A stretch of 64,000 nucleotides of DNA, from positions 311,032-375,031 of the forward strand of contig JBMOPU010000012.1 in assembly GCA_049322955.1 (NCBI GenBank), written 5' to 3'. Source of the DNA: Patescibacteria group bacterium (lineage in GTDB: Bacteria; Patescibacteriota; Microgenomatia; UBA10105; UBA927). A program made the translations under genes and the position numbers. Positions 6,957 through 34,843 of this stretch are shown in pieces. The notes beneath the pieces are model-generated. The model had not been told where the DNA came from. It saw only the letters and a list, made by a program, of their open reading frames with translations, and did not search any database. Within the stretch, counting starts at the first letter, position 1; every line of letters begins with the position of its first letter.

Positions 6957-7778
6957 ATGGATCTCTTCAGCGTCAGCGGCTTTGAACGAGTACTTACACG
7001 GGTACTTCCAGAACCGCATGCCGGGCTCATGTCCGGGCTGTTATTTGGCTCCAAAGTGTCACTTTCGCCTGAGTTTATCGAAGCGTTAACGCGAAGCGGC
7101 ACCCTCCATATCGTGGCGTTATCAGGGATGAATATTGCCATTATTGCCAGGCTTATGGAGACAAGTATCGCGTCCGTATGGGGCAAACGCCCGGCGACAC
7201 TAGGTACACTTATGGGTATTGTCTGGTTTGTTTGGTTTGTGGGACCGAGTCCTTCGCTCGTCCGGGCGGCTATCATGGGGGGGATAGCCCTCATGGCGCA
7301 TTTATTCGGACGGCAATACTGGGGGCTCGTGGCTTGGGCGGTGACGGTATGCAGTATGCTCATCATCAACAGAGAGTGGAGTAAGGATCTTTCTTTTCAA
7401 TTATCGGCGCTTGCAACATTGGGGATTATTCTTTTTGGCGGGGGACAGGAAAACGTTGGGGCAAAAAAAAGCTTAGCTGGCAAAGTGTTAGCGGCGGTCA
7501 CGGAAAATATCCGACTGACTCTTGCGGCACAACTGTTTACGGTTCCGCTTATCTTCTGGCAATTCCAGAGGATTTCATTTATCGCTCCGCTATCCAACCT
7601 TATGATCGGATGGATCATCGCACCCCTAACGATTCTCGGTTGGCTGACCGTTTTGGCGGGATTTTTGTGGTTTCCGTTGAGTTATAGCTTATCCTGGTTT
7701 GATTGGATTTTATTGGAATATGTTATCCGGACGGTCTATCTGATGGGTTCTTTCCCATTAGGCAGTCTTGGTCGTTAA
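6957..7778 (+). CDS. comEC: ComEC/Rec2 'competence' integral-membrane domain protein (N-terminal half of a split ComEC)
   Basis: LLFGSKVSLSPEFIEALTRSGTLHIVALSGMNIAIIA matches the ComEC competence-domain signature; polytopic membrane protein; 4 nt downstream of comEA. Confidence 0.75.
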   Translation: MDLFSVSGFERVLTRVLPEPHAGLMSGLLFGSKVSLSPEFIEALTRSGTLHIVALSGMNIAIIARLMETSIASVWGKRPATLGTLMGIVWFVWFVGPSPSLVRAAIMGGIALMAHLFGRQYWGLVAWAVTVCSMLIINREWSKDLSFQLSALATLGIILFGGGQENVGAKKSLAGKVLAAVTENIRLTLAAQLFTVPLIFWQFQRISFIAPLSNLMIGWIIAPLTILGWLTVLAGFLWFPLSYSLSWFDWILLEYVIRTVYLMGSFPLGSLGR

Positions 7779-7933
7779 CTATAACAAAACATATCTACTC
7801 ATGGCTGAAGTATTATTGTCGCTAAAGCCCTGTTTTGTTTGTTATAGGTTTTATGTATTTGATTGTATATTTTGATAATCACAGGATTGTATGCAATAAC
7901 TGTTCATTTAATGAATATGAAAAGAGGTGAATC

Positions 7934-8845
7934 ATGAAGCCGTTGTATTTTGCATACGGTATTCTCGGATTTGCTACAGGTTTTGTACTTTTATTGCATT
8001 TTCTTACGTCACTTCCCGACGGAAAGTTGTATTTGGTCTTTTGTGACGTCGGTCAGGGGGACGCGATATACGCCCGATTGCCCGACGGACGGGACATGCT
8101 CGTTGACGGCGGTCCCAATGAAAAAGTGATCGGTTGTCTTTCCCGACACATGCCTTTTTGGGATAGAACGATTGACCTGGTGTTTCTGACGCATCCGGAA
8201 CGGGATCATATGCAGGGGCTTAACGCGGTTATTGCCCGTTACTCAGTAGGGTCGTTCGTGACGGCACCTTCTCCCGTCTCAAACGAGTTACATAGTCAGT
8301 TGCTGACCATACTTGCAAAAGAAGGCGTTCCGATCAGGCGAGTGACTGCAGGATCGGCGGTGGAGATAGGAGATGTTGCTATTGCCGTCCTATGGCCGTC
8401 GGATGCCTATATTACCCGTATCTCGTCATATGCCGTTTCACCCGGGAGTGCGGTACTGGGTGCTACCGCAAATCTGAACGAAGGTTCATTGGTAACTCGG
8501 ATGACGTACGGCGATTTTTCACTTTTGCTTCCCGGTGATGCCGATACGGCCGTCGAGTCAGAGTATCTACGAAACACGCCGTTAGCAACAAGACCGGTGA
8601 CAGTGCTAAAGGTGCCGCATCACGGGAGTAAGACGGGAATAAGCGAATCATTCTTAAAACGGCTTCAGCCTGATCTGGCAATTCTTTCGGTGGGTAAAAA
8701 TTCCTACGGCCATCCGTCACCGATAGTTCTTGGGTTGTTAGCAGATAATCATATTCGAGTGCTACGTACCGATCAGGAAGGGGATATTCAAATCATCAGC
8801 GATGGCGACAGTTGGAAGGTTGTGCCATCCGGTATGCGTCAGTGA
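7934..8845 (+). CDS. comEC: ComEC C-terminal metallo-beta-lactamase domain protein (separate gene)
   Basis: MBL motifs HPERDHMQG...VPHHGSK and VFCDVGQGDA; its own SD (AAGAGGTG) lies 6 nt upstream of the ATG. The 155-bp AT-rich gap separating it from the competence-domain ORF contains no ORF. Confidence 0.8.
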   Translation: MKPLYFAYGILGFATGFVLLLHFLTSLPDGKLYLVFCDVGQGDAIYARLPDGRDMLVDGGPNEKVIGCLSRHMPFWDRTIDLVFLTHPERDHMQGLNAVIARYSVGSFVTAPSPVSNELHSQLLTILAKEGVPIRRVTAGSAVEIGDVAIAVLWPSDAYITRISSYAVSPGSAVLGATANLNEGSLVTRMTYGDFSLLLPGDADTAVESEYLRNTPLATRPVTVLKVPHHGSKTGISESFLKRLQPDLAILSVGKNSYGHPSPIVLGLLADNHIRVLRTDQEGDIQIISDGDSWKVVPSGMRQ

Positions 8846-8872
8846 CGATTCGGGAGGGGTTTTCCCTCAGTG

Positions 8873-9301
8873 CTACCACCACGACTGGTTGGGGAAAAAA
8901 TGTTCCTCTACCGCAAGATCATATTCCTGTTCACTGTCATATTTTTCATACCAGGAAAGAATTGTTTCCAGTTGGTGGCGTCTGAGCCTGGTCATGCGGT
9001 CAACCCATGATATTTCCGAATCCAGTATGCCGCGAAGAATATCCCGGTTAACAAATTGCGGTGCGGATGCGTTCTTTGCCGATGTGTGCGCCGCTTCTGC
9101 GGCTTTGGCGATCGTTTCGATTGCGTCGTCGTCATATCGCATGTTTCGCAACAGTGTGGGAATACGTCTGTTCCGTTTTGTTTCGAGGGCCAGGGCGGCC
9201 GCCTGGGCGGTAACCGATGCGGGGTAGTTACGGCTCACATCGCTAAACAGACGCATCGCTTCTTGGTGTTTTGATGGAAGGCGCGAATGATATCGTTCCA
9301 T
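8873..9301 (-). CDS. Hypothetical protein
   Basis: 142-aa ORF whose sequence looks protein-like, whereas the overlapping plus ORF 8802..9227 is low-complexity; convergent with comEC. Confidence 0.45.
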   Translation of the reverse strand: MERYHSRLPSKHQEAMRLFSDVSRNYPASVTAQAAALALETKRNRRIPTLLRNMRYDDDAIETIAKAAEAAHTSAKNASAPQFVNRDILRGILDSEISWVDRMTRLRRHQLETILSWYEKYDSEQEYDLAVEEHFFPNQSWW

Positions 9302-9674: not shown

Positions 9675-11198
9675 ATGAAAACTCAACCGATGACAACGTT
9701 ATGGGGAAGCGCATTTACACAAATGCCGTCAGGTGCGGTGCTGTCTTTTACCGCGGGGCGTGATACCGCCGATATTCCCATGGCCGACACGGCGCTATTG
9801 CCGTATGACGTCTGGGTGAACACCGCCCATGTCGTCATGCTCGCCAAAACCAAATGTATCCCCGTGGGTTCTGCAACAAAACTTCTTTCCGGTCTTGCGG
9901 CACTGGAAAAACTTGTTGATGCGGGCAAATTTCCCCTGGATCCTCTCAAGGAAGACGTCCACACCAACGTCGAAGCATGGTTAACCGAGGAGTTGGGAAG
10001 CGCTGTTGCGGGCACGCTCCACACGGCAAGAAGCAGAAATGATCAGATCGTTTGCGATATGCGACTCTTCATGCGGGACGGGGCGATAACGGTTATTGAA
10101 AATACCCTGGTGCTCATCAAGACATTGCTTGCCAAAGCCGAAAAAACAAAAGGAATAGTCATGCCGGGTTTTACGCATCATCAGCATGCCATGGTGACGA
10201 CGTTGGGGCATGTATTGTCGGGATTTGCGGCTATGTTGCTTCGTGATGTCGAACGTTTTGAAGCGTGGTACGAACGGTATAACCATAGCCCGTTGGGCAA
10301 TATGGCATCGTACGGGACAAGTTATCCCATTGATAAAAAAATGACGGCCGAGTGTCTGGGGTTTGACGGCCCCGACTATCATTCGATCGATGCCATTACC
10401 AACCGCTGGGAGGCGGAAGCGGATTTGGCATTTGCCGTAACGGTGCTTATGAACCACCTCTCGACCGTTTCAGAAACCCTTGTCCTGCTTTCGATGACGG
10501 AATTCGGCATGGTGACGATACACGAAACATATAGTACGGGAAGCTCGGTGATGCCGCAGAAGAAAAATCCCGATGTGCTGGAGGTCGTTAAAGGGAAAGC
10601 CGCACTGGTAAGCGGGCAACTGATGAGTCTTGTCGCCCTGGGTAAAGGATCCTTCATCGGCTATAACCGGGATTCACAGTGGGCAAAATATATCATCATG
10701 GATGTTTTGCGCGAGTGTAGTGCCGCTCCCGTGCTCATTTCCGGGGTAATCGGGACAATGACCGTCAATGAGAAAGCAATGGCATCGTGGTGTCACACAG
10801 GAGGCATCGGTGCGACGGTACTTATGGAACAACTTGCGCAGACCTCCAGGCTTCCTCTGCGTCAGGCTAAAACGGTGGTGGAACAGGCGATAAAGGAGTG
10901 CGGCAATACGGGGACGATCACCCATTCTTCCCTTATTGGCGCCATGAAAGACCAATCGCGTACCTCTTTTCCTCCCGCGGCAGAACAGGTGATGGCCTGG
11001 CAGGATCCGCATACGATGGTGGGGTTGATGAAATCACTGGGAAGCCCCGGCAAGAAAAGTATGAAAACGGTACTAAAAAAGCTTACGCGAACTCTGCATC
11101 AGGATATAACTTGGCTCGGGAAGCAAAAACAACACCTCCACGAGGCAAAAGCGAAGCTGAACGATATGAAGGCCGCGTTGATGAAAGGAGGTGAATAA
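9675..11198 (+). CDS. argH: Argininosuccinate lyase
   Basis: Fumarate-lyase family signature GSSVMPQKKNPD and ArgH-like N-terminal region (LPYDVWVNTAHVVML). Confidence 0.9.
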   Translation: MKTQPMTTLWGSAFTQMPSGAVLSFTAGRDTADIPMADTALLPYDVWVNTAHVVMLAKTKCIPVGSATKLLSGLAALEKLVDAGKFPLDPLKEDVHTNVEAWLTEELGSAVAGTLHTARSRNDQIVCDMRLFMRDGAITVIENTLVLIKTLLAKAEKTKGIVMPGFTHHQHAMVTTLGHVLSGFAAMLLRDVERFEAWYERYNHSPLGNMASYGTSYPIDKKMTAECLGFDGPDYHSIDAITNRWEAEADLAFAVTVLMNHLSTVSETLVLLSMTEFGMVTIHETYSTGSSVMPQKKNPDVLEVVKGKAALVSGQLMSLVALGKGSFIGYNRDSQWAKYIIMDVLRECSAAPVLISGVIGTMTVNEKAMASWCHTGGIGATVLMEQLAQTSRLPLRQAKTVVEQAIKECGNTGTITHSSLIGAMKDQSRTSFPPAAEQVMAWQDPHTMVGLMKSLGSPGKKSMKTVLKKLTRTLHQDITWLGKQKQHLHEAKAKLNDMKAALMKGGE

Positions 11199-11200
11199 CT

Positions 11201-12448
11201 ATGAAACAACAAACAACGTATCAAAAGGTCGCCTCATATGAGGCGAAAAAAGGAAAAATTAAAAAAGTGTTATTACTCTATAGCGGCGGACTTGATACAA
11301 GCGTCATGCTCAAATGGATCATCGATACCTACGGTGTCGAGGTGATTACGCTTACCATGGACTTGGGACAACAGGGGGATGATCTTCTCGCCATTCAAAA
11401 AAAAGCGCGCAAATTCGGTGCAAAGAAAGCAATTGTCATGGATGTGAAAGATGAATTCGCGGAAAAGTATATAAGTTGGGGGATTAAGGCAAACGCCAGT
11501 TATCAGGGCGAGTATCACCTTTCTACCCCCATCGGTCGTGCCATAACGGCGGCCAAGGCTATTGAGGTGGCGGCCATGGTGGGCGCCGATGTCGTGGCAC
11601 ACGGCTGTACCGGAAAAGGGAATGATCAGGTGCGGTTCGAGGGCTATATGTTAGCGCTTAATCCCGCAATCAAAATCATCGCGCCCGTTCGTGAATGGAA
11701 CATGGACAGGAATGAAGAAATCGCGTATGCGGAAAAACACGGGATTCCCGTGCCCGCATCCGTCGATTTTCCCTACAGCGTTGATGACAATATGTGGGGA
11801 ATGACCTGGGAAGGCGGGGAGATTGAAGACCCGAAGTATATTCCCAAGATAGAAAAATTTTTGACGACCTATACGCTTGCCAAGCATGCTCCTGATACCG
11901 AAGAGTTTGTCACAATCACCTTCACAAAAGGTATTCCGACAAAGCTCAACGGGAAGTCTATGAAACTTGCTTCTCTTATTACCGCGTTAAACGGTATTGC
12001 AGGCAAACACGGGGTCGGGGTTGTCCATCTGGTCGAGGATCGGTTGATCGGGTTAAAAGACCGCGGGGTCTATGAGTTGCCTGCGGGACACGTCATTATC
12101 AGTGCCCATAAGGCGCTCGAACAATACGTATCGACAAGGGATCTCAATGAGTTGAAAAATCAGCTCGACATCAAATGGGCATATCTTTGTTATGGTGCGA
12201 AATGGTTTGATCCTGTTATGACGGCAATCAATGCGTTCAACGATACCGTCAATAAGATGGTAAGCGGGGAAGTAACCGTGAAGTTGTATAAAGGTACGGC
12301 GACCGTGGTTGCCATGCAATCGCCGTATGCGATGCACCATGCATCATTTACGACCGCCGGAGGCTACCAGTACAATGTGAATGCCAGCGCGGGATTTATC
12401 GAGGTGTACTCACTGCAGATGAAGCTCGCCAACCAGCGGAGAACATAA
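11201..12448 (+). CDS. argG: Argininosuccinate synthase
   Basis: PP-loop motif VLLLYSGGLDTSVMLKWI plus ArgG-like downstream blocks; starts 3 nt after argH. Confidence 0.9.
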   Translation: MKQQTTYQKVASYEAKKGKIKKVLLLYSGGLDTSVMLKWIIDTYGVEVITLTMDLGQQGDDLLAIQKKARKFGAKKAIVMDVKDEFAEKYISWGIKANASYQGEYHLSTPIGRAITAAKAIEVAAMVGADVVAHGCTGKGNDQVRFEGYMLALNPAIKIIAPVREWNMDRNEEIAYAEKHGIPVPASVDFPYSVDDNMWGMTWEGGEIEDPKYIPKIEKFLTTYTLAKHAPDTEEFVTITFTKGIPTKLNGKSMKLASLITALNGIAGKHGVGVVHLVEDRLIGLKDRGVYELPAGHVIISAHKALEQYVSTRDLNELKNQLDIKWAYLCYGAKWFDPVMTAINAFNDTVNKMVSGEVTVKLYKGTATVVAMQSPYAMHHASFTTAGGYQYNVNASAGFIEVYSLQMKLANQRRT

Positions 12449-12514: not shown

Positions 12515-13507
12515 ATGAAGCTATCACTCAAAGGAAAAGATTTTATTGCAGAACAGGAATGGAGCAAAGCAGAGCTTCAGGCCGCTATTTCTTTGGCAAT
12601 CACCCTAAAGAAGAAATTTCGCCTGAAACAGCCGACCCCATATCTATTGCATCAAACGCTCTATCTGTTATTTTTTTTCAGCTCAACCCGGACGCGCACC
12701 AGTTTTGAAGCGGCGATGGATCACTTGGGCGGTAACTCGCATGATCTTACCCCCGACAAGCTCCAGATTGCCCATGGAGATACGCCGAAAGAGATAGGAA
12801 AGATTCTTTCTTCCTACGGGCATGGCATTGCCATACGGCATTGTGATTGGGGCGAAGGGAATGCGTATATCCGTGAGGTTGCCAAACACTCGACGGCGCC
12901 GGTTTTTAACATGCAGTGCGATATCTACCATCCGTTTCAAGCAATGGCAGACCTTATGACGATTCTTGAAAAGAAAAAAACGGTAAAGAACAAAAAAATC
13001 GTCATGTCCTGGGCGTACGCCAATAGCTACACCAAGCCGATATCGGTGCCGCAGTCGTTTTTGTTGCTTTTGACGAAATTCGGTGCGGATATTACGCTGG
13101 CACATCCTAAAGAGTTTATGCTCATGCCCGAGGTTATGGCGCAGGCGACGGAGAACGCCAGGCAAACGGGAGGGTCGGTCGCCGTGACCCATAGCATGGA
13201 AGAAGCATTTACCGACGCGGATGTGGTCTATCCCAAAAGCTGGGGACCGCTCGTTACGACGAGTGACCCCAAAAAATGCACGCGCATTGCGGCAAAATAC
13301 AAACACTGGATATGTGACGAACGGATGATGAGGTTAGCCAAAAAAGATGCCATTTATATGCACTGTCTGCCTGCCGATCGCGGGGTGGAGGTAACGGATG
13401 CCGTTATTGATGGTGCACAATCGGTAGTGTATGATCAGGCGGAAAATCGAATGCATGTACAAAAAGCGATTCTCGCGCTTACCATGGGGAATAAAAAATT
13501 GATATAA
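12515..13507 (+). CDS. Transcarbamylase of the YgeW-like/'unknown TCase' type: carbamoyl-phosphate motifs intact, ornithine SMG loop replaced
   Basis: STRTRTSFE, HPFQ and HCLPADRG are present, but DxxxSMG is replaced by YPKSWGP. IAHGDT and NAYIREV are as I recall for E. coli YgeW (from memory). SD GAAAGGAG lies 6 nt upstream. Confidence 0.8.
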   Translation: MKLSLKGKDFIAEQEWSKAELQAAISLAITLKKKFRLKQPTPYLLHQTLYLLFFFSSTRTRTSFEAAMDHLGGNSHDLTPDKLQIAHGDTPKEIGKILSSYGHGIAIRHCDWGEGNAYIREVAKHSTAPVFNMQCDIYHPFQAMADLMTILEKKKTVKNKKIVMSWAYANSYTKPISVPQSFLLLLTKFGADITLAHPKEFMLMPEVMAQATENARQTGGSVAVTHSMEEAFTDADVVYPKSWGPLVTTSDPKKCTRIAAKYKHWICDERMMRLAKKDAIYMHCLPADRGVEVTDAVIDGAQSVVYDQAENRMHVQKAILALTMGNKKLI

Positions 13508-13511
13508 CCGT

Positions 13512-14474
13512 ATGAAACAAAAACAACTTCTTTCCATTACTGATCTTTCCCGCCGGGATATCCTGGATATCTTGGCGATTGCCGCAAAGCTGAAGCGACA
13601 GCTCAAGAAAACCGGCAAAAATCGTCCGGTGCTGAAAGGAAAAACACTGATACACATTTATGAGAAGCCGAGTCTACGGACGCACGCATCATTTGATATC
13701 GGTATGTTTCAGCTCGGAGGGCATGCCCTGTATTTGGGACCCGAGCATATCGGATTAGGCGTGCGCGAGCCTGTGGAACATGCCGCAAATGTCTTGTCCC
13801 GTATGGGCAACGTTATTATGGCGCGGGTCTATCGTCATGAGACCGTGACGGAACTTGCCGAGCATTCGCTCGTTCCCGTCATCAACGGACTTTCCGACCG
13901 TGAGCACCCGTGCCAGATCCTTGCTGATCTTATGACCATGGTCGAACACAAGAAACGCCTGACCGGTCTTCGTGTCGCATTTATAGGGGACGGGGAAAAC
14001 AACGTCACCCATTCGCTTGCTCTTGCCTGCGGCTTATTAGGGATGCATTTCGTTGCCGCCAGTCCTAAAGGATACAAAATGAACAAAACCATATCAGAAA
14101 TGGCAAAAAAACTGGCCGCAACGTATGGGGGGTCAGTTACCGAAGTGGTCGATCCCGTTGCCGCGGTGAAAGATGCCGACGTCGTCTATACCGATACCTG
14201 GATTTCCATGGGAGACGAAAAACAGAAAAAAACCCGGCTTTCCGCATTTGCCAAATATCAGGTCAACGATCGCCTGATGCATAAAGCCAAGCCTGATGCG
14301 ATTTTTATGCACGATATGCCCGCTTATCTTGAAAATGAGGTAACGCCATCGGTATTTAACGGCGTGCAATCCGTGGTATATGATCAAGCGGAGAATCGAT
14401 TGCATGCACAAAAAGGGCTCCTGGTGTTTTTGCTCAGGGGAAAATCGGGAAAGAAGGAAAAGAAGAAGGGATGA
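13512..14474 (+). CDS. Ornithine-carbamoyltransferase-like paralog with degenerate carbamoyl-phosphate motifs
   Basis: Collinear with ArgI/ArgF: HPCQ and the ornithine loop DTWISMGDE are conserved, but STRTR is SLRTH and HCLP is HDMP. Confidence 0.8.
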   Translation: MKQKQLLSITDLSRRDILDILAIAAKLKRQLKKTGKNRPVLKGKTLIHIYEKPSLRTHASFDIGMFQLGGHALYLGPEHIGLGVREPVEHAANVLSRMGNVIMARVYRHETVTELAEHSLVPVINGLSDREHPCQILADLMTMVEHKKRLTGLRVAFIGDGENNVTHSLALACGLLGMHFVAASPKGYKMNKTISEMAKKLAATYGGSVTEVVDPVAAVKDADVVYTDTWISMGDEKQKKTRLSAFAKYQVNDRLMHKAKPDAIFMHDMPAYLENEVTPSVFNGVQSVVYDQAENRLHAQKGLLVFLLRGKSGKKEKKKG

Positions 14475-14533
14475 CGGTGTGTATATGGTTTGCCGAAAAT
14501 CTCGCCAAAGGGGGGCGTGATAGAATATATTCT

Positions 14534-16384
14534 ATGAAACTTGCACTGGAACAATTATTTACCAAGGTACTTGCCACTATGGACGTTGTCGATGTCCCTC
14601 CCGCGGTTATGGCAACCGAAGACGCAACGCTCGGCGACTACACCACCAATGTTGCCCTGCGACTTGCAAAACCGCTGAAAAAATCTCCGAAAGACGTTGC
14701 ACTACAGGTTAAAAACATTCTTGATTCGGCAATTAAAGCGGTTAGGCACGATGATGGTGATCATAATATGTCAGATAGCAATCAAAATAGTGCATGGATA
14801 CCGGAGATGAAAAGCGTGCTACAGGATATTGATAGGATAGAGGTGGCGGGTCCGGGCTTTCTCAACCTCTTTGTGACCGAAGCAAGCCTAAGCACTTCAG
14901 TAAATCGAGTGCTAAAAGATGGGGAGCGCTATGGAACAAGCTCCGCAGGTACTCACCCTCAGGCGGGCAGGCAACAACCTATCGTGTTGAAGCTGGACGG
15001 TATCGCAAACCCCGGTCCGAAGCGGGTCATGGTAGAGTTTGCGCATCCCAATACGCACAAAGCCTTCCACATCGGTCATTTGCGCAATATAACGACCGGA
15101 GAGAGTCTGGTGCGACTCCTTGAAGCTACCGGGCACGAAGTGGTGCGCGCCAATTATCAAGGTGATGTGGGGATGCATATTGCCAAATGCCTTTGGGCGA
15201 TGACGCACTTAGCCGATTGCAATCCGGACTCCGTGCGCGGCAAGGAAATTCATGTCCGGGTTGAGTTTTTGGGGAAGGCATATGCCGCGGGAAGTACCCG
15301 CTATGAAACGGATGAAACGGTAAAAAAAGAAACGGGCGACATCAACAAGCAAATTTATGCCAAGGATCCGGTTATCTACCCTCTCTATCAGGAAACACGG
15401 TCATGGAGCCTTGAATATTTTGACGGGATATATAAGCGGGTCGGCACACACTATGATCGGTTCTACTTTGAGAGTGAGTTTTACGAGAAAGGGAAAGCAT
15501 TTGTGGCAGACGGGGTAAAAAAGGGGATTTTTGTCGAAAGTGACGGGGCAATCATTTTCCCGGGAGAAAAATACGGCCTGCATAATCGGGTATTTATCAC
15601 CAAAGAAGGGAACGCCACGTACGAAGGGAAGGAAATCGGGTTGGGGAGGGCACAGTTTGATGAATATCAGCCCGACCTTGTCATGCATGTGGTGGGTCCT
15701 GAACAGGCAGGATATTTCCAGGTGTTATTTGCGGCACTTGCCCGTATGTTCCCCGATACCGAAGGAAAGGAATATCATAAAAAATACGGTTGGGTGAAAT
15801 TAAAGCACGGCAAAATGAGTAGCCGCACCGGGCAGGTGGTACTGGGGGAATGGTTACTTGATGAGGCAAAGAAATCAATCTATGAGATACTAAAACAAAA
15901 TAAATCAAAATATACCAAAGAAGAACAGGATGACATTGCCGAAAAAGGGGCGATTGCCGCGGTGAAATATGCGTTTCTGCGCGTGGGCACCGATCAGGAA
16001 ATTGCGTTTGATCTCAAGGAATCCGTCGCGTTTGACGGAGACTCCGGTCCGTATCTTCTGTATTCATATGCCCGCTGTAACAGTGTGTTGAAAAAAGCGG
16101 GAAGTAACGGCAGTATTGCCGCGGACACGGTGTTCAACACTGAGGAACGCGCTCTTGCGCGATTTTTGAGCTTTTTTCCCGATCTGGTCTCCGATGCCGC
16201 CGCGAACCTATCACCCAATATACTGTGCACCTATTTATATAGGCTGACCTCGTTGTTTAATGTGTTCTACCAGAAGCATCCGATAGCCGAAACACCGCAT
16301 CGCTTAGCACTTACGGCGGCGTGTGCCCAAGTGGTACATAACGGATTATCCCTTTTGGGTATTTCGACGGTAGAGAGGATGTAA
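14534..16384 (+). CDS. argS: Arginyl-tRNA synthetase
   Basis: Class I HIGH motif (HIGHLRNITTGE), KMSSRTG, and C-terminal DALR anticodon-binding region. The MKLALEQLF start at 14534 is in frame with track ORF 14471..16384; ATG 14471 overlaps the upstream stop (ATGA). Confidence 0.9.
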   Translation: MKLALEQLFTKVLATMDVVDVPPAVMATEDATLGDYTTNVALRLAKPLKKSPKDVALQVKNILDSAIKAVRHDDGDHNMSDSNQNSAWIPEMKSVLQDIDRIEVAGPGFLNLFVTEASLSTSVNRVLKDGERYGTSSAGTHPQAGRQQPIVLKLDGIANPGPKRVMVEFAHPNTHKAFHIGHLRNITTGESLVRLLEATGHEVVRANYQGDVGMHIAKCLWAMTHLADCNPDSVRGKEIHVRVEFLGKAYAAGSTRYETDETVKKETGDINKQIYAKDPVIYPLYQETRSWSLEYFDGIYKRVGTHYDRFYFESEFYEKGKAFVADGVKKGIFVESDGAIIFPGEKYGLHNRVFITKEGNATYEGKEIGLGRAQFDEYQPDLVMHVVGPEQAGYFQVLFAALARMFPDTEGKEYHKKYGWVKLKHGKMSSRTGQVVLGEWLLDEAKKSIYEILKQNKSKYTKEEQDDIAEKGAIAAVKYAFLRVGTDQEIAFDLKESVAFDGDSGPYLLYSYARCNSVLKKAGSNGSIAADTVFNTEERALARFLSFFPDLVSDAAANLSPNILCTYLYRLTSLFNVFYQKHPIAETPHRLALTAACAQVVHNGLSLLGISTVERM

Positions 16385-20993: not shown

Positions 20994-22097
20994 TTATGCG
21001 GGGGATTCTTCTTTTTCACGAAGAAGCGAGAGTACTCTGGCATGGATTTCGGGAGTACGACTGACGACAAACGGTATGCGGAACGAATCTCCCTCATGTC
21101 GTTCAATCATTCTTCGTATTCCTGCGGCAATAGCAAGCGGATTGCCGTCTTTGTCGGATACGGAAAATCCTAATTGTTCCGCCGCCTGGATCCAAATTGC
21201 CACTTCATACCAGGGATTGCCTTTAAACGGGTCGACCACGGCATCAATCGTGCCTTCGGCAAGTCCCAAAATGCTGTAGCCGCTCGTGCAGTCCATTGCC
21301 CAAATGCCCTCGTGTTCGGTAAAAAGGGGTAACTGACGCATTTTGTGCATGCGCCGGGTCAGTGTCGCTATCCGGAGCGGTCGGGGGGTATCGTTTGTTT
21401 CGTGTTGGTGTTGTGCATCGGCTTTAAAAGTACGCACGGTCCCGTTGTCATTTTCGATCAGGATAAAACCGTGGTCCACGAGACTGGCGATACCGACCGC
21501 TTGCACGATGCCGTTCCGGTCATAGACGGCGATACCGGTGGTTTGCACGCGATCTTTTTTCTGTATCGAACTGGTCATATCCAAGGGATCAATCACGGCA
21601 AAGCGCTTTCCCTCTTGTACCTGTCCGTCTTCTTCCTTTGCATTCTGCCATTTGGCGCTTTCTTCAGAACGGATCCATAAGCCCGGGATATCTGTGTTTT
21701 GCTCCGCGAGTTGTTCGGCAATAATGGTGCCGATCTCATCGATGCTTCGTTCGGGATTATACTCTTGACCTCCTATAGGCAGAAGAAAATCAGCGCCGAT
21801 TTTCTGCAGATCATCCAAAACAGGGTGGAGGAGTCCTCTTGTGGCTAACAGGTACGTGGCGACGAACTTTCCTTCGGGGGTTTTTGCCATTTCCGCCGAT
21901 TCGGCCTCTAACTTGGCGATGGCGATAGCCTCGGGCACGCGGCGGATGATGCTTTCAAACGTCATCTGCTCCGGCTCGATCATCGGGTGCAATCGCTCGG
22001 CATGAGAGTGCATAAACGGATTATAGGCCTTAAATGGCCTATAATGCAAGTAGTATGATATGGTTTGAAATATTTGTGGCGCTTCGATCGGTATCAC
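20994..22097 (-). CDS. Inositol monophosphatase / FIG-family phosphatase
   Basis: Metal-binding motifs VIDPLDMTS (DPxD) and WAMDCTSGYSILGLAEG (WD-x-AG-like). Confidence 0.65.
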   Translation of the reverse strand: MIPIEAPQIFQTISYYLHYRPFKAYNPFMHSHAERLHPMIEPEQMTFESIIRRVPEAIAIAKLEAESAEMAKTPEGKFVATYLLATRGLLHPVLDDLQKIGADFLLPIGGQEYNPERSIDEIGTIIAEQLAEQNTDIPGLWIRSEESAKWQNAKEEDGQVQEGKRFAVIDPLDMTSSIQKKDRVQTTGIAVYDRNGIVQAVGIASLVDHGFILIENDNGTVRTFKADAQHQHETNDTPRPLRIATLTRRMHKMRQLPLFTEHEGIWAMDCTSGYSILGLAEGTIDAVVDPFKGNPWYEVAIWIQAAEQLGFSVSDKDGNPLAIAAGIRRMIERHEGDSFRIPFVVSRTPEIHARVLSLLREKEESPA

Positions 22098-24880: not shown

Positions 24881-26752
24881 ATGTCTGACCAGTCACACAT
24901 CAGAAACTTTGCGATTATTGCCCACATCGATCACGGCAAAAGTACGCTTGCTGACCGCCTGTTGGAAATGACGGGAACCGTTGCCAGGCGCGAAATGCAG
25001 GAACAATTGCTGGACAGTAACCCCATTGAACGGGAGCGGGGGATCACGATTAAGCTTGCTCCCGTCCGCATGGAGTGGCAGGGATATACCTTAAATCTTA
25101 TCGACACCCCGGGACATGTGGACTTTGGGTACGAAGTAAGCAGATCTCTTGCCGCCTGTGAGGGGGCGCTTCTTGTTGTCGATGCTACCCAGGGCGTACA
25201 GGCGCAGACGCTCGCGAATCTTCATCAGGCACGGCTCCACAACCTGACGATCATCCCGCTCTTAAACAAAATTGACATGCCGCATGCCAGGGTAGAGGAA
25301 ACAAAAGGGGAACTCCGCGCATTGGGCTTTGCCGATGAGGAGATGATTGAAATCTCGGCAAAAACGGGTATGAATGTCGATAAAGTACTGGCCGCTGTGC
25401 TTGAACGAATCCCTCCGCCGAGCGGTAATCCTGCAAACCCGCTTCGGGCACTTATTTTTTCTTCGCACTATGACACGCATAAGGGAGTGGTGGTTTTTGT
25501 TCGTATAGTTGATGGTTCGATACGGTTTGATCCCACATTGCGCGTGCGATTTATGGCGACAAAGAGTGATGTGGCGCCGATTGAACTCGGGGTCTTTTCA
25601 CCGGCCATGCACGCGGTGAGCGATCTGAGATGCGGTGAGGTCGGCTACATCGCCACGGGACTGAAGGACGTCAAACTTGCCAAGGTGGGAGACACGGTGA
25701 CGGTGGGGAATATGAGCGGTACCAAAAATGAGCATCTCGTTGCCGCAGATGAGCCGCTTGCCGGGTACAAGGAGCCCAAGCCGATGGTGTTTTTGGGCTT
25801 GTTTCCCATGGCGGCCGATGAATATCAGGATTCCCGTGAGGCAATGGAAAAACTCCAGTTATCCGACAGCGCATTCACGTTCCGTCCGATCTCATCACTT
25901 GCGCTCGGGAACGGATTCCACTGCGGATTTTTGGGGCTTCTGCATGCCGAGGTGGTACAGGAGCGGATACTTCGGGAGTTTGATCTCACCATGCTGGCGA
26001 CCAGCCCGTCGGTCGAGTATCGGGTGACGCTCAAAAAAGGTGTTGATTACCATAAATTGGGCTTTACCCATAATCACATTGTTTCCCATGTTGATGATCA
26101 GGTCACCGTCAGTATCCAATCGGCAACAGAGCTTCCCGATCCGACATATATCGAAAGGGTAGAAGAGCCCATGATGCAGGTATCTATCTATAGTCCCAAG
26201 CGATTTGTGGGAGCCATCATGCAACTGGCCGTCGAAAAGCGCGGTGAATATGTGGATTTGGGATATGTGGGAGATCAGGCACAATTTACCTACCTTATCC
26301 CGCTTTCAGAGATGATTGTGGACTTTTTTGACCGGTTAAAGTCGGTGACGGAAGGGTATGCGAGTCTTGATTATGAATTTTTTGAATGGAGTACGGCCAA
26401 AGTCGTAAAAGTAGATATCCTGGTCAATAAAGAAAAGGTTGATGCGTTTTCCTTCCTGGTGCTGGAGCAAGCCGCGGTAGTGCGAAGTCGTGATATTGTG
26501 GACCGTTTAGCCGCGGTCATTCCGAAACAGCAATTTGAAATCCCCATTCAGGCGGCCATCGGCGGCTCGGTCATCGCGCGTGCGGATGTCAAAGGATTCA
26601 GGAAGGACGTTATTCAAAAGTTGTACGGAGGAGACCGAACCCGCAAAGATAAGCTCTTAAAAAAGCAAAAAAAAGGAAAAGCAAAAATGAAAATGATCGG
26701 AGCGGTGGAAATACCCCAAAGTGCATTCTTTGCCGTTCTCAAACGGGGATAA
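24881..26752 (+). CDS. lepA: Elongation factor 4 (LepA)
   Basis: Translational GTPase G1 motif AHIDHGKST, DTPGHVDF, NKID; LepA-specific C-terminal tail ...KKQKKGKAKMKMIGAVEIPQSAF. Confidence 0.95.
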   Translation: MSDQSHIRNFAIIAHIDHGKSTLADRLLEMTGTVARREMQEQLLDSNPIERERGITIKLAPVRMEWQGYTLNLIDTPGHVDFGYEVSRSLAACEGALLVVDATQGVQAQTLANLHQARLHNLTIIPLLNKIDMPHARVEETKGELRALGFADEEMIEISAKTGMNVDKVLAAVLERIPPPSGNPANPLRALIFSSHYDTHKGVVVFVRIVDGSIRFDPTLRVRFMATKSDVAPIELGVFSPAMHAVSDLRCGEVGYIATGLKDVKLAKVGDTVTVGNMSGTKNEHLVAADEPLAGYKEPKPMVFLGLFPMAADEYQDSREAMEKLQLSDSAFTFRPISSLALGNGFHCGFLGLLHAEVVQERILREFDLTMLATSPSVEYRVTLKKGVDYHKLGFTHNHIVSHVDDQVTVSIQSATELPDPTYIERVEEPMMQVSIYSPKRFVGAIMQLAVEKRGEYVDLGYVGDQAQFTYLIPLSEMIVDFFDRLKSVTEGYASLDYEFFEWSTAKVVKVDILVNKEKVDAFSFLVLEQAAVVRSRDIVDRLAAVIPKQQFEIPIQAAIGGSVIARADVKGFRKDVIQKLYGGDRTRKDKLLKKQKKGKAKMKMIGAVEIPQSAFFAVLKRG

Positions 26753-27329: not shown

Positions 27330-28430
27330 TTGTATAGTGGCAGTATGGCGGAAATTCATTTTGGGAGTTTTGATGCCGCGCGTGCCATGAAAAACCCTGA
27401 AAAGGGCACACCGTCCGTTGCGGAACCTCTCGCAGTTCGTGACATCCATTATCTCGCCTCAATGCTTCTCGGGGACGGAAAAAAGCCGGCGGTACTGAAT
27501 AAGGAATCCACCGAATGGGTCGATAAGCGGGTACGCGGAGTGAAATATAAGGGGGTGAACGTCGTGACCGTCGATTGGGACGGGGTACACGAACCCGTTG
27601 TCGACGACACGATGGATAAACTGCTCAAAAGTACCGTGCCGACGGGAGTCGTCGTCGAATACTTTACCCCGGAACTCGCCGCTCGGGCAAAGGCGGTGCC
27701 GATTGTCGGCGGCATATTGGAAAAGAAGGTAACCGAGCCCGTGAAAAACGAAAAAGATATAAAGGGACGGGCGCACTACCGCAACCAATATAAACGTCGC
27801 CTGTATTTCGGAAAAACCATGACGGACGGGCTCGCCGAATCGGGAGTTCCCGCGCTTTGCTTTGACATTGCCAACAAGCCTTTGTATATGCTCCTTCGTG
27901 ATGGTGCGGTGATTGGCGAAAAACTATTGGGGACGGCCCTGGGAAAAACAATTGATATTGAAGCCGCAAAGCGCAATATTGACACCAAGGGCCTGTATGC
28001 CAAGTTGGGTTCGGATATTCCCTCGTGGTGGTATTTTTCGAAGCTTATTATGCAAATGGCCAGGAAGGGTATCTATGATCCGAAAAAACTCTCGGTACTG
28101 GATACGTTCCAACTGCACCTGGAGGACGCAAGGCGACTTGTCATCGCGGAAGGAATCACCCAGCACATTGATCGGGGAGTTGCCGACGGGGTCTTGAAAA
28201 AGGACGCAACCATTCTGGTAGTGTATCCCGAAGCGCATAATTTGCGGATCAGAAACTACATGGAACGGGTGACCAAAAAAGACGGCGGGTTGCCGCTTGC
28301 GGTGAAAGACCTCGCATATCGATTGGTGTCTGATCCGATTTTGGAATTTAAGGAACGGGCATATCAATATAAGGACGGTGCATGGCAGAAAACGGGAGTA
28401 TATGGCATTAAACGGCACACAAAAGCGTAG
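27330..28430 (+). CDS. Hypothetical protein
   Basis: 366-aa ORF, no recognisable motif. Confidence 0.5.
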   Translation: MYSGSMAEIHFGSFDAARAMKNPEKGTPSVAEPLAVRDIHYLASMLLGDGKKPAVLNKESTEWVDKRVRGVKYKGVNVVTVDWDGVHEPVVDDTMDKLLKSTVPTGVVVEYFTPELAARAKAVPIVGGILEKKVTEPVKNEKDIKGRAHYRNQYKRRLYFGKTMTDGLAESGVPALCFDIANKPLYMLLRDGAVIGEKLLGTALGKTIDIEAAKRNIDTKGLYAKLGSDIPSWWYFSKLIMQMARKGIYDPKKLSVLDTFQLHLEDARRLVIAEGITQHIDRGVADGVLKKDATILVVYPEAHNLRIRNYMERVTKKDGGLPLAVKDLAYRLVSDPILEFKERAYQYKDGAWQKTGVYGIKRHTKA

Positions 28431-33709: not shown

Positions 33710-34843
33710 ATGCCCGAAGCTGTCGTTGGTGCCACTACATCGGATATTACTCATCAGCAAAAAACCAAAGAGGGATCACTGACTATTGAGTATCATACCC
33801 ACGATTCGATCGCCAATACGATCGGACATATCCTTGCTGTTCCCACCGTTCATACATTGTTGTGGACATGGGACAGCGCGTTTAAAAATCCTCCGAAAGA
33901 ATTGGCGGATCAACTGTTTGATCGGTATAAGGATGTGCCGTGGAAAGGCGACGTGCTGGTGCGGGTAGGGCATGCGTCCATCATCGGCGATATGCAACGT
34001 GCGCTTGCCCGGAACGAATCCGTACGGGGAAGACCCTGGCGTCTTAAAGATATTCCGGGAAGAGTTGCCGAAACATTCGGCAAACTGGGAATAGCGTTTT
34101 TTACTTTTTTCTCGACCGCGGCGGCAAAGTTTTTGCGTACCGACTTTTATAACCCCTATGCAAACGTCGCCACGGTGTATCATCCGAAGCTCGGTGTCGG
34201 CATGCATGAATTGGGGCACGCGGAGTTTTTTAATCAACGGGATAACGTAAGCAGGGTGGGACTCCTCATCATGGATTGGTTGGGATTGAATGTGGGCAAA
34301 GATATCGTGGTGCCGGTCCCTTTTTTCCGCTCATTTACTGAATACAAAGCAAGTCAGATTGCTATGCAACGGTTTAAAACGGACGAAGAGCGGCGTGAGG
34401 GGTTGAAGATACTCGAAGGTGCATGGGCAACTTACCTGTTCAGCGATGTTTTGAGTTTATCCTTTTTACCCAAACCGGTGACCGAGGCTATCGGATCCGT
34501 CTTATCGTATCCCGCATCGGTCGCGGGACACCTGATGAATAGACTGTATCCAAAAAAAGACCAGCGGTTCAGCTATATATTTTCCGGCAAAGCCGGATCC
34601 GGCTTTGCCGGAGAGGGGAATGTGGGGTTACAACATAATCAGCCCGTAGAAAAGAAGAGGGTATCCAAAAAGCCTGCAGTACCCGATCTCTCGGCGCATC
34701 AGGTACTTGTTGCGACCGCAAAAGCGCCCTCATCGGGCAAGGAGACTGCCGTAGAAGGCAAAGGGGGACGTCAGTTTAGTGACGAACCGTTAAAAAACGG
34801 CAAACGCCCGCTTCATAGTAACACCCACCGCATCACCTTTTAG
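33710..34843 (+). CDS. Zincin-like HExxH metallopeptidase-like protein
   Basis: VGMHELGHAEFF (HExxH); C-terminal tail ...LHSNTHRITF is shared with the next ORF. Confidence 0.5.
   Translation: MPEAVVGATTSDITHQQKTKEGSLTIEYHTHDSIANTIGHILAVPTVHTLLWTWDSAFKNPPKELADQLFDRYKDVPWKGDVLVRVGHASIIGDMQRALARNESVRGRPWRLKDIPGRVAETFGKLGIAFFTFFSTAAAKFLRTDFYNPYANVATVYHPKLGVGMHELGHAEFFNQRDNVSRVGLLIMDWLGLNVGKDIVVPVPFFRSFTEYKASQIAMQRFKTDEERREGLKILEGAWATYLFSDVLSLSFLPKPVTEAIGSVLSYPASVAGHLMNRLYPKKDQRFSYIFSGKAGSGFAGEGNVGLQHNQPVEKKRVSKKPAVPDLSAHQVLVATAKAPSSGKETAVEGKGGRQFSDEPLKNGKRPLHSNTHRITF

What the first reader, a model, noticed from the sequence alone, without database searches (positions are those of the whole stretch)
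12515..14474. Tandem transcarbamylase paralogs with complementary losses of active-site motifs
Protein 1 (12515..13507) keeps the carbamoyl-phosphate motifs STRTR, HPxQ and HCLP but replaces the ornithine-binding DxxxSMG loop with YPKSWGP (YgeW-like 'unknown/oxamate' TCase signature, as I recall it). Protein 2 (13512..14474) is collinear with OTCase and keeps HPCQ and DTWISMGDE, but has SLRTH instead of STRTR and HDMP instead of HCLP. TCase active sites form at subunit interfaces, so the pair could act as a heteromer or use two different, non-ornithine substrates. Either would be unusual for an argH-argG-...-argS cluster.
Basis: partly seen in the sequence, partly recalled or inferred. Interest (0 to 1): 0.7.

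Follow-up and report, generated by a model that had tools for sequence, protein, structure and literature searches.

The report
OTCase paired with YgeW-type transcarbamylase
In this arginine operon of a tiny-genome Patescibacteria bacterium, two adjacent transcarbamylase genes are not complementary half-broken copies: one is the pathway's ornithine transcarbamylase with a conserved Cys-to-Asp variant, and the other belongs to the purine-catabolic YgeW family, which may supply carbamoyl phosphate.

Summary
In detail: both ORFs and every quoted motif are at the stated coordinates. The interpretation of complementary losses is not supported.

**Protein 2** passes the curated OTCase cutoffs and keeps all ornithine- and CP-binding residues. 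SxRT, not STRTR, is the superfamily motif. All 120 nearest homologs have SLRT[H/R] and HD[M/L]P. HCLP and HD[ML]P forms interchange inside one well-supported Patescibacteria OTCase clade, in identical operon positions. It is most likely the operon's argF.

**Protein 1** lies in the YgeW clade (100/100 bootstrap). It is 66% identical to enzymes in uricolytic clusters. In 68 non-Patescibacteria loci its relatives sit with SsnA, YgeY, XDH and carbamate kinase, never with arg genes.

In Patescibacteria, P1 homologs sit next to carbamoyl-phosphate consumers in at least five operon layouts: OTCase, AOTCase, or OTCase plus PyrB at the head of a pyr operon. A separate long-form YgeW is also fused to an OTCase operon.

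**Best hypothesis (inferred, about 0.4):** P1 releases carbamoyl phosphate from a scavenged ureido compound for OTCase/ATCase. The main rival is that P1 itself makes citrulline, because one genome has argH-argG-P1-argS without P2.

Both proteins belong to known enzyme kinds. The coupling appears to be unreported.

The parts
9675..11198 (+). argH, argininosuccinate lyase; first gene of the operon
   Evidence: TIGR00838 342 bits against a cutoff of 279.5
11201..12448 (+). argG, argininosuccinate synthase
   Evidence: NF001770 484 bits against a cutoff of 334
12515..13507 (+). Protein 1: short-form YgeW-family (knotted-type) transcarbamylase. Motifs: STRTR 12683-12697, 80's loop QIAHGDT 12764-12784, QCDIYHPFQ 12914-12940, proline-rich loop SYTKPISVPQ 13025-13054, YPKSWGP 13229-13249, HCLPADRG 13361-13384, AENRMH 13439-13456.
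   Evidence: Below every curated NCBIfam cutoff. Identity is 39% to E. coli YgeW and 66% to a homolog in a uricolytic cluster. In the YgeW clade 100/100. Motif positions.
13512..14474 (+). Protein 2: ornithine transcarbamylase (argF ortholog) of the HD[M/L]P variant clade. Motifs: YEKPSLRTH 13659-13685, VIMAR 13812-13826, HPCQ 13905-13916, GDGENNVTHS 13986-14015, DTWISMGDE 14193-14219, HDMPAYLENEV 14310-14342, AENRLH 14388-14405.
   Evidence: NF001986 388 bits against 306 and TIGR00658 378 bits against 281. Best PDB match is P. furiosus OTCase, 1.5e-84. In the OTCase clade 83/100. Motif positions.
14471..16384 (+). argS, arginyl-tRNA synthetase; its start overlaps the P2 stop by 4 nt
   Evidence: TIGR00456 344 bits against a cutoff of 262; junction sequence

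Best explanation
The two genes encode two separate, intact transcarbamylases of different classes that share carbamoyl phosphate (CP) as a substrate. They are not two crippled halves of one enzyme.

Shown: protein 2 is the operon's ornithine transcarbamylase. It belongs to a Patescibacteria OTCase clade in which the Cys of HCLP is usually Asp and the Leu is often Met, and it keeps every ornithine- and CP-binding residue. Canonical HCLP members nest inside the same clade at the same operon position.

Shown: protein 1 is a short-form member of the YgeW clade of knotted transcarbamylases. Outside Patescibacteria this family sits in purine/uric-acid degradation clusters directly upstream of carbamate kinase. 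The characterised E. coli YgeW phosphorolyses 2,3-diureidopropanoate to release CP.

Inferred: in Patescibacteria the carbamate-kinase partner has been replaced by CP-consuming biosynthetic enzymes. P1 would phosphorolyse a scavenged ureido compound (identity unknown) to CP. The adjacent OTCase then condenses CP with ornithine to citrulline, and ArgG and ArgH convert that to arginine for ArgS. In relatives the same CP would also feed PyrB. The net reaction is an ATP-free transfer of a carbamoyl group with CP as intermediate, pulled forward by the consumer. The tight gene coupling may reflect co-expression or CP channelling.
For: P2 as OTCase:
- It passes the curated OTCase cutoffs.
- Residue mapping to E. 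coli ArgI shows all listed ligands kept (PMC4581275).
- SLRTR also occurs in HCLP OTCases inside argB/argD clusters.
- The HD[ML]P signature is present in 120/120 homologs.
- The Patescibacteria OTCase clade including the HCLP members L173/L176 has 95/100 support, against 1/100 without them.
- P2-type is the sole TCase in argG-argH-(P2)-argS operons.

P1 as YgeW family:
- The YgeW clade has 100/100 support.
- Of 68 non-Patescibacteria loci, 63 carry uricolytic markers, carbamate kinase is immediately downstream in 36, and none carries arg or car genes.
- 98 positions, including all catalytic ones, are conserved between Patescibacteria and uricolytic members.

Coupling to CP consumers in Patescibacteria:
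- argH-argG-P1-P2-argS (window, L171)
- argH-argG-OTC-P1 (L173, L181)
- argG-GNAT-argH-M20-OTC-P1-argS (L176, L182)
- OTC-P1-pyrB-pyrC-pyrD... with no carAB (L165, L172)
- argG-?-argC-argD-argB-AOTCase-argH-M20-P1 (L167)
- An independent long-form YgeW that passes the YgeW equivalog cutoffs overlaps an OTCase gene by 4 nt in an argG-argH operon (L087).
- No carbamate kinase, carAB or uricolytic gene is found in the 64 kb window or in any Patescibacteria locus examined (and the Pfam tables of the context calls).
- P1 is the most conserved gene of the operon.
Against: - The ureido donor is unknown, and no upstream uricolytic enzymes are nearby.
- Whole genomes could not be searched, so carAB or arcC may exist elsewhere.
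- Many Patescibacteria have the P2-type OTCase without P1, so another CP source must exist in at least those.
- L180 has argH-argG-P1-argS with no P2 within 10 kb either side. This fits the idea that P1 itself makes citrulline unless an OTCase lies elsewhere in that genome.
- Transcarbamylase equilibria favour carbamoylation, so phosphorolysis needs a strong pull.
- No biochemical data exist for any HD[ML]P OTCase or any short-form YgeW homolog.
- The trees are neighbour-joining only.
Confidence: 0.42

Rival explanations
1. Protein 1 has been converted into a citrulline-forming (or catabolic citrulline-cleaving) ornithine transcarbamylase. P1 and P2 would then be alternative or direction-specialised isozymes, like ArgF and ArcB.
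For: - Arg operons occur with P1 only (L180), with P2 only (L092, L097, L098, L169) or with both. This is the pattern expected for interchangeable enzymes.
- The YgeW-pathway intermediate albizziin is a shorter homolog of citrulline (chemistry; PMC12507026).
- Patescibacteria P1s differ from the short uricolytic relatives at 12 fixed positions, several in the 80's loop.
Against: - P1 lacks every ornithine-binding element of OTCases.
- It is 66% identical to enzymes in uricolytic clusters.
- Both genes are kept together under strong purifying selection over deep divergence and through rearrangements.
- Two OTCases at the head of a pyr operon, or beside a bona fide AOTCase, make little sense.
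- A true long-form YgeW shows the same pairing.
- Several 'Patescibacteria-specific' residues (A67, D77) match E. coli YgeW.
Confidence: 0.2
2. Protein 1 works anabolically as a third CP consumer. It would carbamoylate an unidentified amine, and it clusters with OTCase and ATCase only because all three draw on one CP pool made elsewhere.
For: - Transcarbamylase equilibria favour carbamoylation (established enzymology).
- The operons look like a collection of CP users, and L181 also has a NodU/CmcH-type carbamoyltransferase nearby.
Against: - No product or downstream enzyme is evident.
- The family's only documented role is catabolic, partnered with carbamate kinase.
- No CP-producing gene is seen in any of the loci.
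Confidence: 0.12
3. Protein 2 is not an OTCase. Its Asp in HDxP, as in the diaminopropionate/diaminobutyrate transcarbamylases, marks a shorter diamino-acid substrate. P1 and P2 would then remove the two ureido groups of 2,3-diureidopropanoate in turn.
For: - HDLP is the DPTCase/DBTCase hallmark (PMC4581275).
- In Chloroflexota uricolytic clusters a second TCase (H-S-L-P type) replaces the YgeY hydrolase beside the P1-family gene.
Against: - P2 keeps DxxxSMG, the FxKxSxRT lysine and the NN motif, which DPTCase/DBTCase have changed.
- HCLP and HD[ML]P forms interchange within one clade and operon position.
- P2-type sits with argG/argH/argS even without P1.
- It occupies the argF-like Der-PlsY-GpsA syntenic slot in Dehalococcoidia.
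Confidence: 0.07
4. One reading: P1 and P2 form mixed trimers whose interface active sites combine the intact CP motifs of P1 with the intact ornithine loop of P2.
For: - The genes are adjacent and tightly spaced or overlapping in many genomes.
- Active sites lie at subunit interfaces (PMC4581275).
- P2's 80's loop has Gly where E. coli OTCase has Gln82.
Against: - Neither protein lacks required motifs.
- The two are only 33% identical and belong to different structural classes, knotted-type and unknotted.
- Each occurs alone in many genomes.
- P1 also pairs with AOTCase and with HCLP OTCases.
- The Gly-containing 80's loop is also found in Dehalococcoidia OTCases that have no P1 partner.
Confidence: 0.03

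Closest known systems
Anabolic ornithine transcarbamylase (ArgF/ArgI; e.g. P. furiosus 1A1S/1PVV, E. coli ArgI)
   Same: P2 is collinear over its full length (E 1.5e-84 to 1A1S) and passes the NCBIfam OTCase cutoffs. It keeps the FxKxSxRT lysine, the beta4 Arg, HPxQ, the NN motif, DxxxSMG and the ENR arginine, and it sits with argG, argH and argS.
   Different: It has Leu instead of Thr and His instead of Arg in STRTR. It has Asp-Met instead of Cys-Leu in HCLP, and Gly at the 80's-loop position of E. coli Gln82. These are clade-wide traits. No member of the HD[ML]P clade has been assayed.
YgeW (E. coli b2870; PDB 3Q98; E. faecalis 2YFK): a knotted catabolic transcarbamylase that phosphorolyses 2,3-diureidopropanoate and is coupled to carbamate kinase YqeA
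   Same: P1 falls in the same clade (100/100). It shares STRTR, the QIAHG(E/D)T 80's loop, QCDxxHPxQ, the SY(G/T)KP(L/I)SVPQ proline-rich loop, YPKSW and HCLPAD. Its closest non-Patescibacteria relatives share YgeW's gene neighbourhood.
   Different: Identity is only 39%. P1 is 330 aa rather than 396 aa: it lacks the N- and C-terminal helices and the extended 240's loop. It has ENR-Arg where YgeW has Lys363, and Cys110 where YgeW has Asp124. It scores below the YgeW cutoffs (237 against 453). In Patescibacteria it lies in arg or pyr operons without carbamate kinase, SsnA, HyuA or YgeY.
N-acetylornithine / N-succinylornithine transcarbamylases (ArgF'; Xanthomonas 3KZC, B. fragilis 1JS1)
   Same: They share the knotted-type architecture signature and the Lys of the (A/P)K(S/N)W motif. 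They are also located in arginine gene clusters. JGI annotates P1 homologs as AOTCase.
   Different: P1 scores 252 bits against the AOTCase cutoff of 288. It has Gln134 where AOTCase has Glu144, and it lacks the long 80's and 120's loops. A genuine AOTCase (390 bits) co-occurs with a P1 homolog in the Gottesmanbacteria cluster.
L-2,3-diaminopropionate and L-2,4-diaminobutyrate transcarbamylases (DPTCase/DBTCase of viomycin, zwittermicin and padanamide pathways)
   Same: They have Asp in the second position of HxLP (HDLP), as P2-type proteins do (PMC4581275).
   Different: Those enzymes replace the Asp of DxxxSMG by Thr or Ser ((T/S)RWQTTG, TRWQSMG). P2 keeps DTWISMG and sits in an arginine operon, not an antibiotic cluster.
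Tandem pseudo-ATCase (UGTCase-like, H-S/T-LP) plus ygeW homolog in purine-catabolic clusters (Barba et al. 2013, Nocardioides JS614)
   Same: Two different transcarbamylase genes lie side by side, and one of them belongs to the P1 family.
   Different: There both are catabolic and are followed by carbamate kinase. Here the partner is an anabolic OTCase, AOTCase or ATCase, and no kinase is present.

Membership tests
Aspartate/ornithine transcarbamylase superfamily (both proteins) | The two Pfam domains OTCace_N and OTCace, the motifs SxRT, HPxQ and HxLP-like, and the beta4 Arg | tested here: met
   One search shows both domains in both proteins. One search shows P1 with STRT, HPFQ, HCLP and R108, and P2 with SLRT, HPCQ, HDMP and R105. 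Leu to Met in P2's HxLP is the only deviation, and it also occurs in P1-family members (HCMP, HLMP).
Ornithine transcarbamylase (P2) | Curated family score cutoff (NCBIfam NF001986 / TIGR00658) | tested here: met
   388 bits against 306 and 378 bits against 281
Ornithine transcarbamylase (P2) | Ornithine-binding residues: DxxxSMG loop, Asn167-equivalent, Lys of FxKxSxRT | tested here: met
   D228, S232, M233, N163/N164 and K52 (residue list from PMC4581275)
Ornithine transcarbamylase (P2) | Cys in HCLP (present in 'most OTCases' according to the review) | tested here: not met
   HDMP in P2, and HD[ML]P in 120/120 homologs. HCLP members nest in the same clade, so this residue is variable within the orthologous group.
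Ornithine transcarbamylase (P2) | Catalytic activity with ornithine plus carbamoyl phosphate | not testable with these tools
   No biochemical data were found for any HD[ML]P-type protein.
YgeW-type knotted catabolic transcarbamylase (P1) | Phylogenetic membership in the YgeW clade | tested here: met
   Short forms plus long YgeW are monophyletic in 100/100 NJ bootstraps, with the long forms nested among the short ones.
YgeW-type knotted catabolic transcarbamylase (P1) | [quoted passage not shown] | tested here: not met
   237 bits against 453 and 220 bits against 500. P1 is 330 aa and the alignment shows the extensions are absent. The uricolytic short homologs fail the cutoffs in the same way.
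YgeW-type knotted catabolic transcarbamylase (P1) | Putative second-substrate residues Q160, S200, K203, K270, D334 and the 80's-loop Gln98 | tested here: met
   Q134, S171, K174, K241, D288 and Q84 are conserved. D124 is replaced by C110 and K363 by R312.
YgeW-type knotted catabolic transcarbamylase (P1) | Gene neighbourhood: carbamate kinase with SsnA, HyuA, YgeY, YgeX and XDH | tested here: not met
   None of these are in the window or in 10 Patescibacteria loci. The feature is met for non-Patescibacteria relatives.
YgeW-type knotted catabolic transcarbamylase (P1) | Trefoil-knotted fold | tested here: inconclusive
   The proline-rich loop signature SYTKPISVPQ is present. The AF2 model has pLDDT 76 with residues 45-83 below 50. 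Foldseek gives AOTCase, P. furiosus OTCase and YgeW all at TM about 0.7. No coordinates were available to trace a knot.
N-acetylornithine transcarbamylase (P1) | Curated cutoff NF003384; Glu144, Trp77 and extended 80's/120's loops | tested here: not met
   252 bits against 288. P1 has Gln134 in place of Glu144 and short loops. A genuine AOTCase is present alongside a P1 homolog in L167.
DPTCase/DBTCase (P2) | HDLP together with (T/S)RWQ(T/S)(T/M)G in place of DxxxSMG | tested here: not met
   HDMP is present, but the loop is DTWISMG (criteria).

The most novel reading that the evidence does not exclude
Patescibacteria (Microgenomates-type) have rewired a purine-catabolic YgeW-type transcarbamylase from an ATP-yielding module (TCase plus carbamate kinase) into a biosynthetic one (TCase plus OTCase/AOTCase/ATCase). 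This would give an ATP-free route to carbamoyl phosphate, independent of carbamoyl-phosphate synthetase, by phosphorolysis of a scavenged ureido compound. The CP may be channelled within a TCase-TCase complex and would feed both arginine and pyrimidine synthesis in minimal genomes.
Probability: 0.33. Interest if true: 0.78.

Novelty: new variant of a known kind. Interest (0 to 1): 0.52.

Why it matters
If P1 really supplies carbamoyl phosphate, it would be a third biological route to this metabolite, besides CPS and anabolic carbamate kinase. It would also help explain how ultra-small symbiotic bacteria with stripped-down metabolism still make arginine and pyrimidines.

Three results stand regardless of that hypothesis:
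- A large OTCase clade in Patescibacteria and Dehalococcoidia replaces the 'catalytic' Cys of HCLP by Asp, so that motif should not be used as an OTCase criterion.
- A widespread short YgeW-type family has no curated model and is annotated inconsistently, as OTCase by NCBI and as AOTCase by JGI.
- SLRT and HDxP are not signs of inactivation.

Tried and rejected
- **Sequencing error or pseudogene for P2:** rejected. The motifs are conserved in 120/120 homologs, the identical protein is on 12 contigs, and the gene is under purifying selection.
- **P1 as AOTCase (the JGI label):** rejected. It is below the cutoff, lacks the signature residues, and co-occurs with a true AOTCase.
- **The M20 genes next to P1 in L167/L176 as YgeY orthologs, which would imply a retained lower uricolytic pathway:** rejected. 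They are only 21-25% identical to both YgeY and ArgE.
- **Patescibacteria-specific acidic substitutions in P1 (D69, D77) as evidence of a switch to cationic ornithine:** dropped, because E. coli YgeW also has A67 and D77.
- **Structure route:** the AF2 model of P1 was mediocre and Foldseek could not separate OTCase, AOTCase and YgeW. The second prediction was not used.
- **Promoter and terminator scans:** no better than shuffled sequence.
- **Literature searches** for Patescibacteria/CPR with carbamoyl phosphate, carbamate kinase or arginine biosynthesis found nothing on this gene pair.
- **A single origin of HD[ML]P shared by Dehalococcoidia and Patescibacteria:** not supported (18/100).
- **The first naive longest-ORF gene caller** missed genes in high-GC loci and was replaced by a homology-supported caller.
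- **Whole-genome presence of carAB or arcC** could not be checked.
Full report
**1. Observation**

The window carries a co-directional run on the + strand: argH (9675-11198), argG (11201-12448), protein 1 (12515-13507, 330 aa), protein 2 (13512-14474, 320 aa) and argS (14471-16384). The gaps are 2, 66 and 4 nt, and P2 and argS overlap by 4 nt in an ATGA junction. The source is a Patescibacteria genome. An identical P1 is named 'MAG: Patescibacteria group bacterium' on a 990,597-bp contig, and the same operon with an identical P2 occurs on 12 other contigs.

**2. The unusual motifs are family traits**

Among the 120 closest P2 homologs (62-97% identity):
- The first motif is PSLRTH (92) or PSLRTR (29), never STRTR.
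- The last motif is always HD[M/L]P, never HCLP.
- HPCQ is present in all 121 sequences (120 homologs plus P2), and DTW[V/I]SMG in nearly all of them.

Compared with the L171 relative, synonymous sites are saturated (pS about 0.75). Non-synonymous differences are low: pN is 0.08 for P1 and 0.20 for P2, against 0.11 for argG and 0.17 for argS. Both genes are therefore under purifying selection.

**3. What the motifs mean**

The transcarbamylase review (PMC4581275) gives these points:
- The superfamily motifs are Fx(E/K..)xSxRT, HPxQ and HxLP, plus a beta4 Arg.
- The characterised SOTCase is S-L-R-T and the AOTCase is S-M-R-T.
- The fifth residue of STRTR is not among the listed CP ligands.
- HxLP contacts the substrates through main-chain oxygens.
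- HDLP is the normal motif of the active diaminopropionate and diaminobutyrate transcarbamylases.

Mapped onto E. coli ArgI, P2 keeps K52, S54, R56, T57, R105, H132, Q135, N163/164, D228, S232, M233 and R296. In the fetched loci, SLRTR also occurs in HCLP-type OTCases embedded in argB/argD clusters. So P2 has not lost carbamoyl-phosphate binding. P1 likewise has the complete residue set of a knotted-type enzyme.

**4. Protein 2 is the argF ortholog**

- It passes the curated OTCase cutoffs: 388 bits against 306, and 378 against 281.
- Its best PDB match is P. furiosus OTCase at 1.5e-84.
- It groups with the OTCases, including E. coli ArgI, in 83/100 bootstraps.
- P2-type genes are the only transcarbamylase in argG-argH-(P2)-argS operons of other Patescibacteria-like contigs: L092, L097, L098, L099, L102 and L169.
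- At about 50% identity the HD[LM]P signature is the annotated ArgF of free-living soil Dehalococcoidia/Chloroflexi MAGs. There it occupies a conserved slot beside CdaA-YbbR-Der-PlsY-GpsA, a slot that HCLP-type OTCases also occupy (L084, L132, L138, L157).
- In L173, L176 and L182 the OTCase beside the P1 homolog is a canonical HCLP form.
- The Patescibacteria OTCase clade that includes these HCLP members has 95/100 support, against 1/100 when they are excluded.

Cys and Asp therefore interchange within one orthologous group at one operon position, which argues for unchanged function. A common origin of the Asp form with Dehalococcoidia is unresolved (18/100).

**5. Protein 1 is a short YgeW-type enzyme**

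P1 scores below every curated cutoff: OTC 256 against 306, AOTCase 252 against 288, YgeW 237 against 453.

| Compared with | Identity to P1 |
|---|---|
| L178 uricolytic-cluster homolog | 66% |
| E. coli YgeW | 39% |
| Genuine AOTCase (L167) | 36% |
| P2 | 33% |
| E. coli ArgI | 29% |

In a bootstrapped NJ tree, short forms plus classical long YgeW are monophyletic in 100/100 replicates. That clade joins AOTCase in 98/100, and Patescibacteria P1s form their own clade in 98/100.

A GTDB-wide scan found the family at 50-60% identity in Chloroflexota, Actinomycetota, Acidobacteriota, Verrucomicrobiota and others. Of the 68 such loci:
- 63 carry uricolytic markers: SsnA, YgeY, xanthine dehydrogenase, hydantoinase or adenine deaminase, named by NCBIfam.
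- Carbamate kinase lies immediately downstream in 36.
- None carries argG, argH, argS, argB, argC or carB.

This is the neighbourhood of E. coli ygeW. YgeW was shown in 2025 to phosphorolyse one ureido group of 2,3-diureidopropanoate, giving carbamoyl phosphate that carbamate kinase YqeA converts to ATP (PMC12507026; bioRxiv 10.1101/2025.04.24.650524). Barba et al. had already noted a ygeW homolog beside a pseudo-ATCase and xdhABC in Nocardioides.

**6. A context switch in Patescibacteria**

At 66% identity (L178) the homolog lies in XDH-amidohydrolase-YgeY-carbamate kinase-TCase-SsnA/HyuA-like-PALP. From 71% upward the homologs lie in these layouts:

| Loci | Gene order |
|---|---|
| window, L171 | argH-argG-P1-P2-argS |
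| L173, L181 | argH-argG-OTC-P1 |
| L176, L182 | argG-GNAT-argH-M20-OTC-P1-argS |
| L165, L172 | OTC-P1-pyrB-pyrC-pyrD-...-pyrE/pyrF(-pyrG), no carAB |
| L167 | argG-?-argC-argD-argB-AOTCase(390 against 288 bits)-argH-M20-P1 |
| L180 | argH-argG-P1-argS, no P2 |

In addition, L087 has argG-argH-OTC(HDLP) followed, with a 4-nt overlap, by a 389-aa protein that passes both YgeW equivalog cutoffs (590 against 453 and 577 against 500). A second YgeW lineage has therefore independently joined an OTCase operon.

No carbamate kinase, carAB or uricolytic gene appears in the 64 kb window or in any of these loci. All Patescibacteria P1 homologs are identical at the diagnostic positions whatever their context, which implies one function. 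They share 98 conserved positions with the uricolytic members, including all catalytic ones, and differ at 12.

**7. Mechanism**

The two enzyme identities are shown. What follows is inferred.

The one function that fits all these contexts is a link to carbamoyl phosphate. Given the family's documented catabolic chemistry, the most economical reading is that P1 produces CP by phosphorolysis of a ureido compound, and that the neighbouring OTCase, AOTCase or ATCase consumes it. In effect the carbamate-kinase partner has been swapped for biosynthetic consumers. The net reaction, ureido donor plus ornithine giving amine plus citrulline, is roughly isoenergetic and needs no ATP. Consumption of CP would pull the unfavourable phosphorolysis, just as YqeA stimulates YgeW in vitro.

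Weaknesses:
- The donor is unknown.
- Whole genomes could not be checked for CPS or carbamate kinase.
- P2-only genomes exist.
- L180 lacks P2.

L180 keeps alive the main rival, that P1 has become an ornithine/citrulline enzyme. The L087 long-form YgeW, the pyr-operon context, the AOTCase context and the long-term retention of both genes all argue against that rival.

**8. Heteromer idea**

Nothing requires it. Neither protein is deficient, the two are 33% identical and belong to different structural classes, each occurs alone elsewhere, and P1's partner varies. A trimer-trimer complex for CP channelling is possible but untested.

**9. Novelty and verdict**

Both proteins belong to known kinds: OTCase and YgeW-type transcarbamylase. 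Three things appear new in the searched literature:
- the Asp-for-Cys OTCase clade
- the short YgeW-type family as a distinct, uncurated and inconsistently annotated group
- the recurrent operonic coupling of YgeW-type enzymes to CP-consuming biosynthetic transcarbamylases in Patescibacteria

The finding as written ('complementary losses') is not upheld. The locus is still moderately interesting because it yields a testable hypothesis for how minimal genomes obtain carbamoyl phosphate.

Noticed in passing
window 1..~2290, minus strand (runs off the window start): GC is 0.67 with AT skew -0.5. The cause is a very long collagen-like (Gly-X-Y)n repeat ORF on the minus strand ([16 protein letters not shown]...), with more than 760 residues visible and no stop in frame. 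In the syntenic relative L171 the corresponding gene product is 2,726 aa.
   Followed up: partly
L005-L072 (non-Patescibacteria uricolytic clusters): Upstream of the P1-family gene there is either a YgeY M20 hydrolase (23 loci) or a second transcarbamylase with the H-S-L-P (UGTCase/pseudo-ATCase) signature (26 loci), and both in only 2 loci. This suggests the second ureido group of diureidopropanoate is removed either by hydrolysis or by phosphorolysis. The phosphorolytic route could yield a second carbamoyl phosphate, and so a second ATP, per purine.
   Followed up: partly
P1 family generally (P0121-P0240; L178, L010): The short YgeW-type family has no curated NCBIfam model, and its members fall below all OTC, AOTCase and YgeW cutoffs. 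NCBI names them 'ornithine carbamoyltransferase' and JGI names them 'N-acetylornithine carbamoyltransferase'. Both labels are probably wrong.
   Followed up: yes
L181:2943-4703: A NodU/CmcH-type carbamoyltransferase (PF02543/PF16861), another user of carbamoyl phosphate, lies two genes upstream of argH-argG-OTC-P1 inside a glycosyltransferase cluster.
   Followed up: no
L087:8203-9991: argH appears as two ORFs (353 and 270 aa). The first begins with a ParB/sulfiredoxin-like segment (…LDGHHRL…) fused to the ArgH N-terminus. This could be a frameshift or a real fusion or split.
   Followed up: no
L176:5961-6491 and 7962-9053; L182:5906-6430 and 7928-8968; L167:8849-9988: Several Patescibacteria arg clusters that lack argB/C/D still carry a small GNAT acetyltransferase and an ArgE/DapE-family M20 deacylase. 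The M20 is not a YgeY ortholog. This hints at an acylated intermediate in a truncated pathway.
   Followed up: partly
window 14471-16384 (argS) and 9675-11198 (argH): The ArgS model match starts only at residue 179 of 637, so the N-terminal ~180 residues diverge from the family profile. ArgH (507 aa) extends about 35 residues beyond the model at its C-terminus.
   Followed up: no
window 27330-28430, 31659-33071, 33710-34843, 35283-39305, 40382-41725, 43324-44796, 58669-59559, 20994-22097; also 51380-57199 (minus strand): Eight of ten large ORFs scanned, including a 1,340-aa one, have no Pfam match at E<=1e-5. Only LepA (24881-26752) and an M16 peptidase (59806-61089) were recognised. A 1,939-aa ORF on the minus strand was not scanned. 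No tRNA genes occur in the 64 kb.
   Followed up: no
window 6957-7778 and 7934-8845: ComEC is encoded as separate Competence-domain (273 aa) and metallo-beta-lactamase (303 aa) ORFs downstream of ComEA. The same arrangement is conserved in relatives L171 and L180.
   Followed up: no
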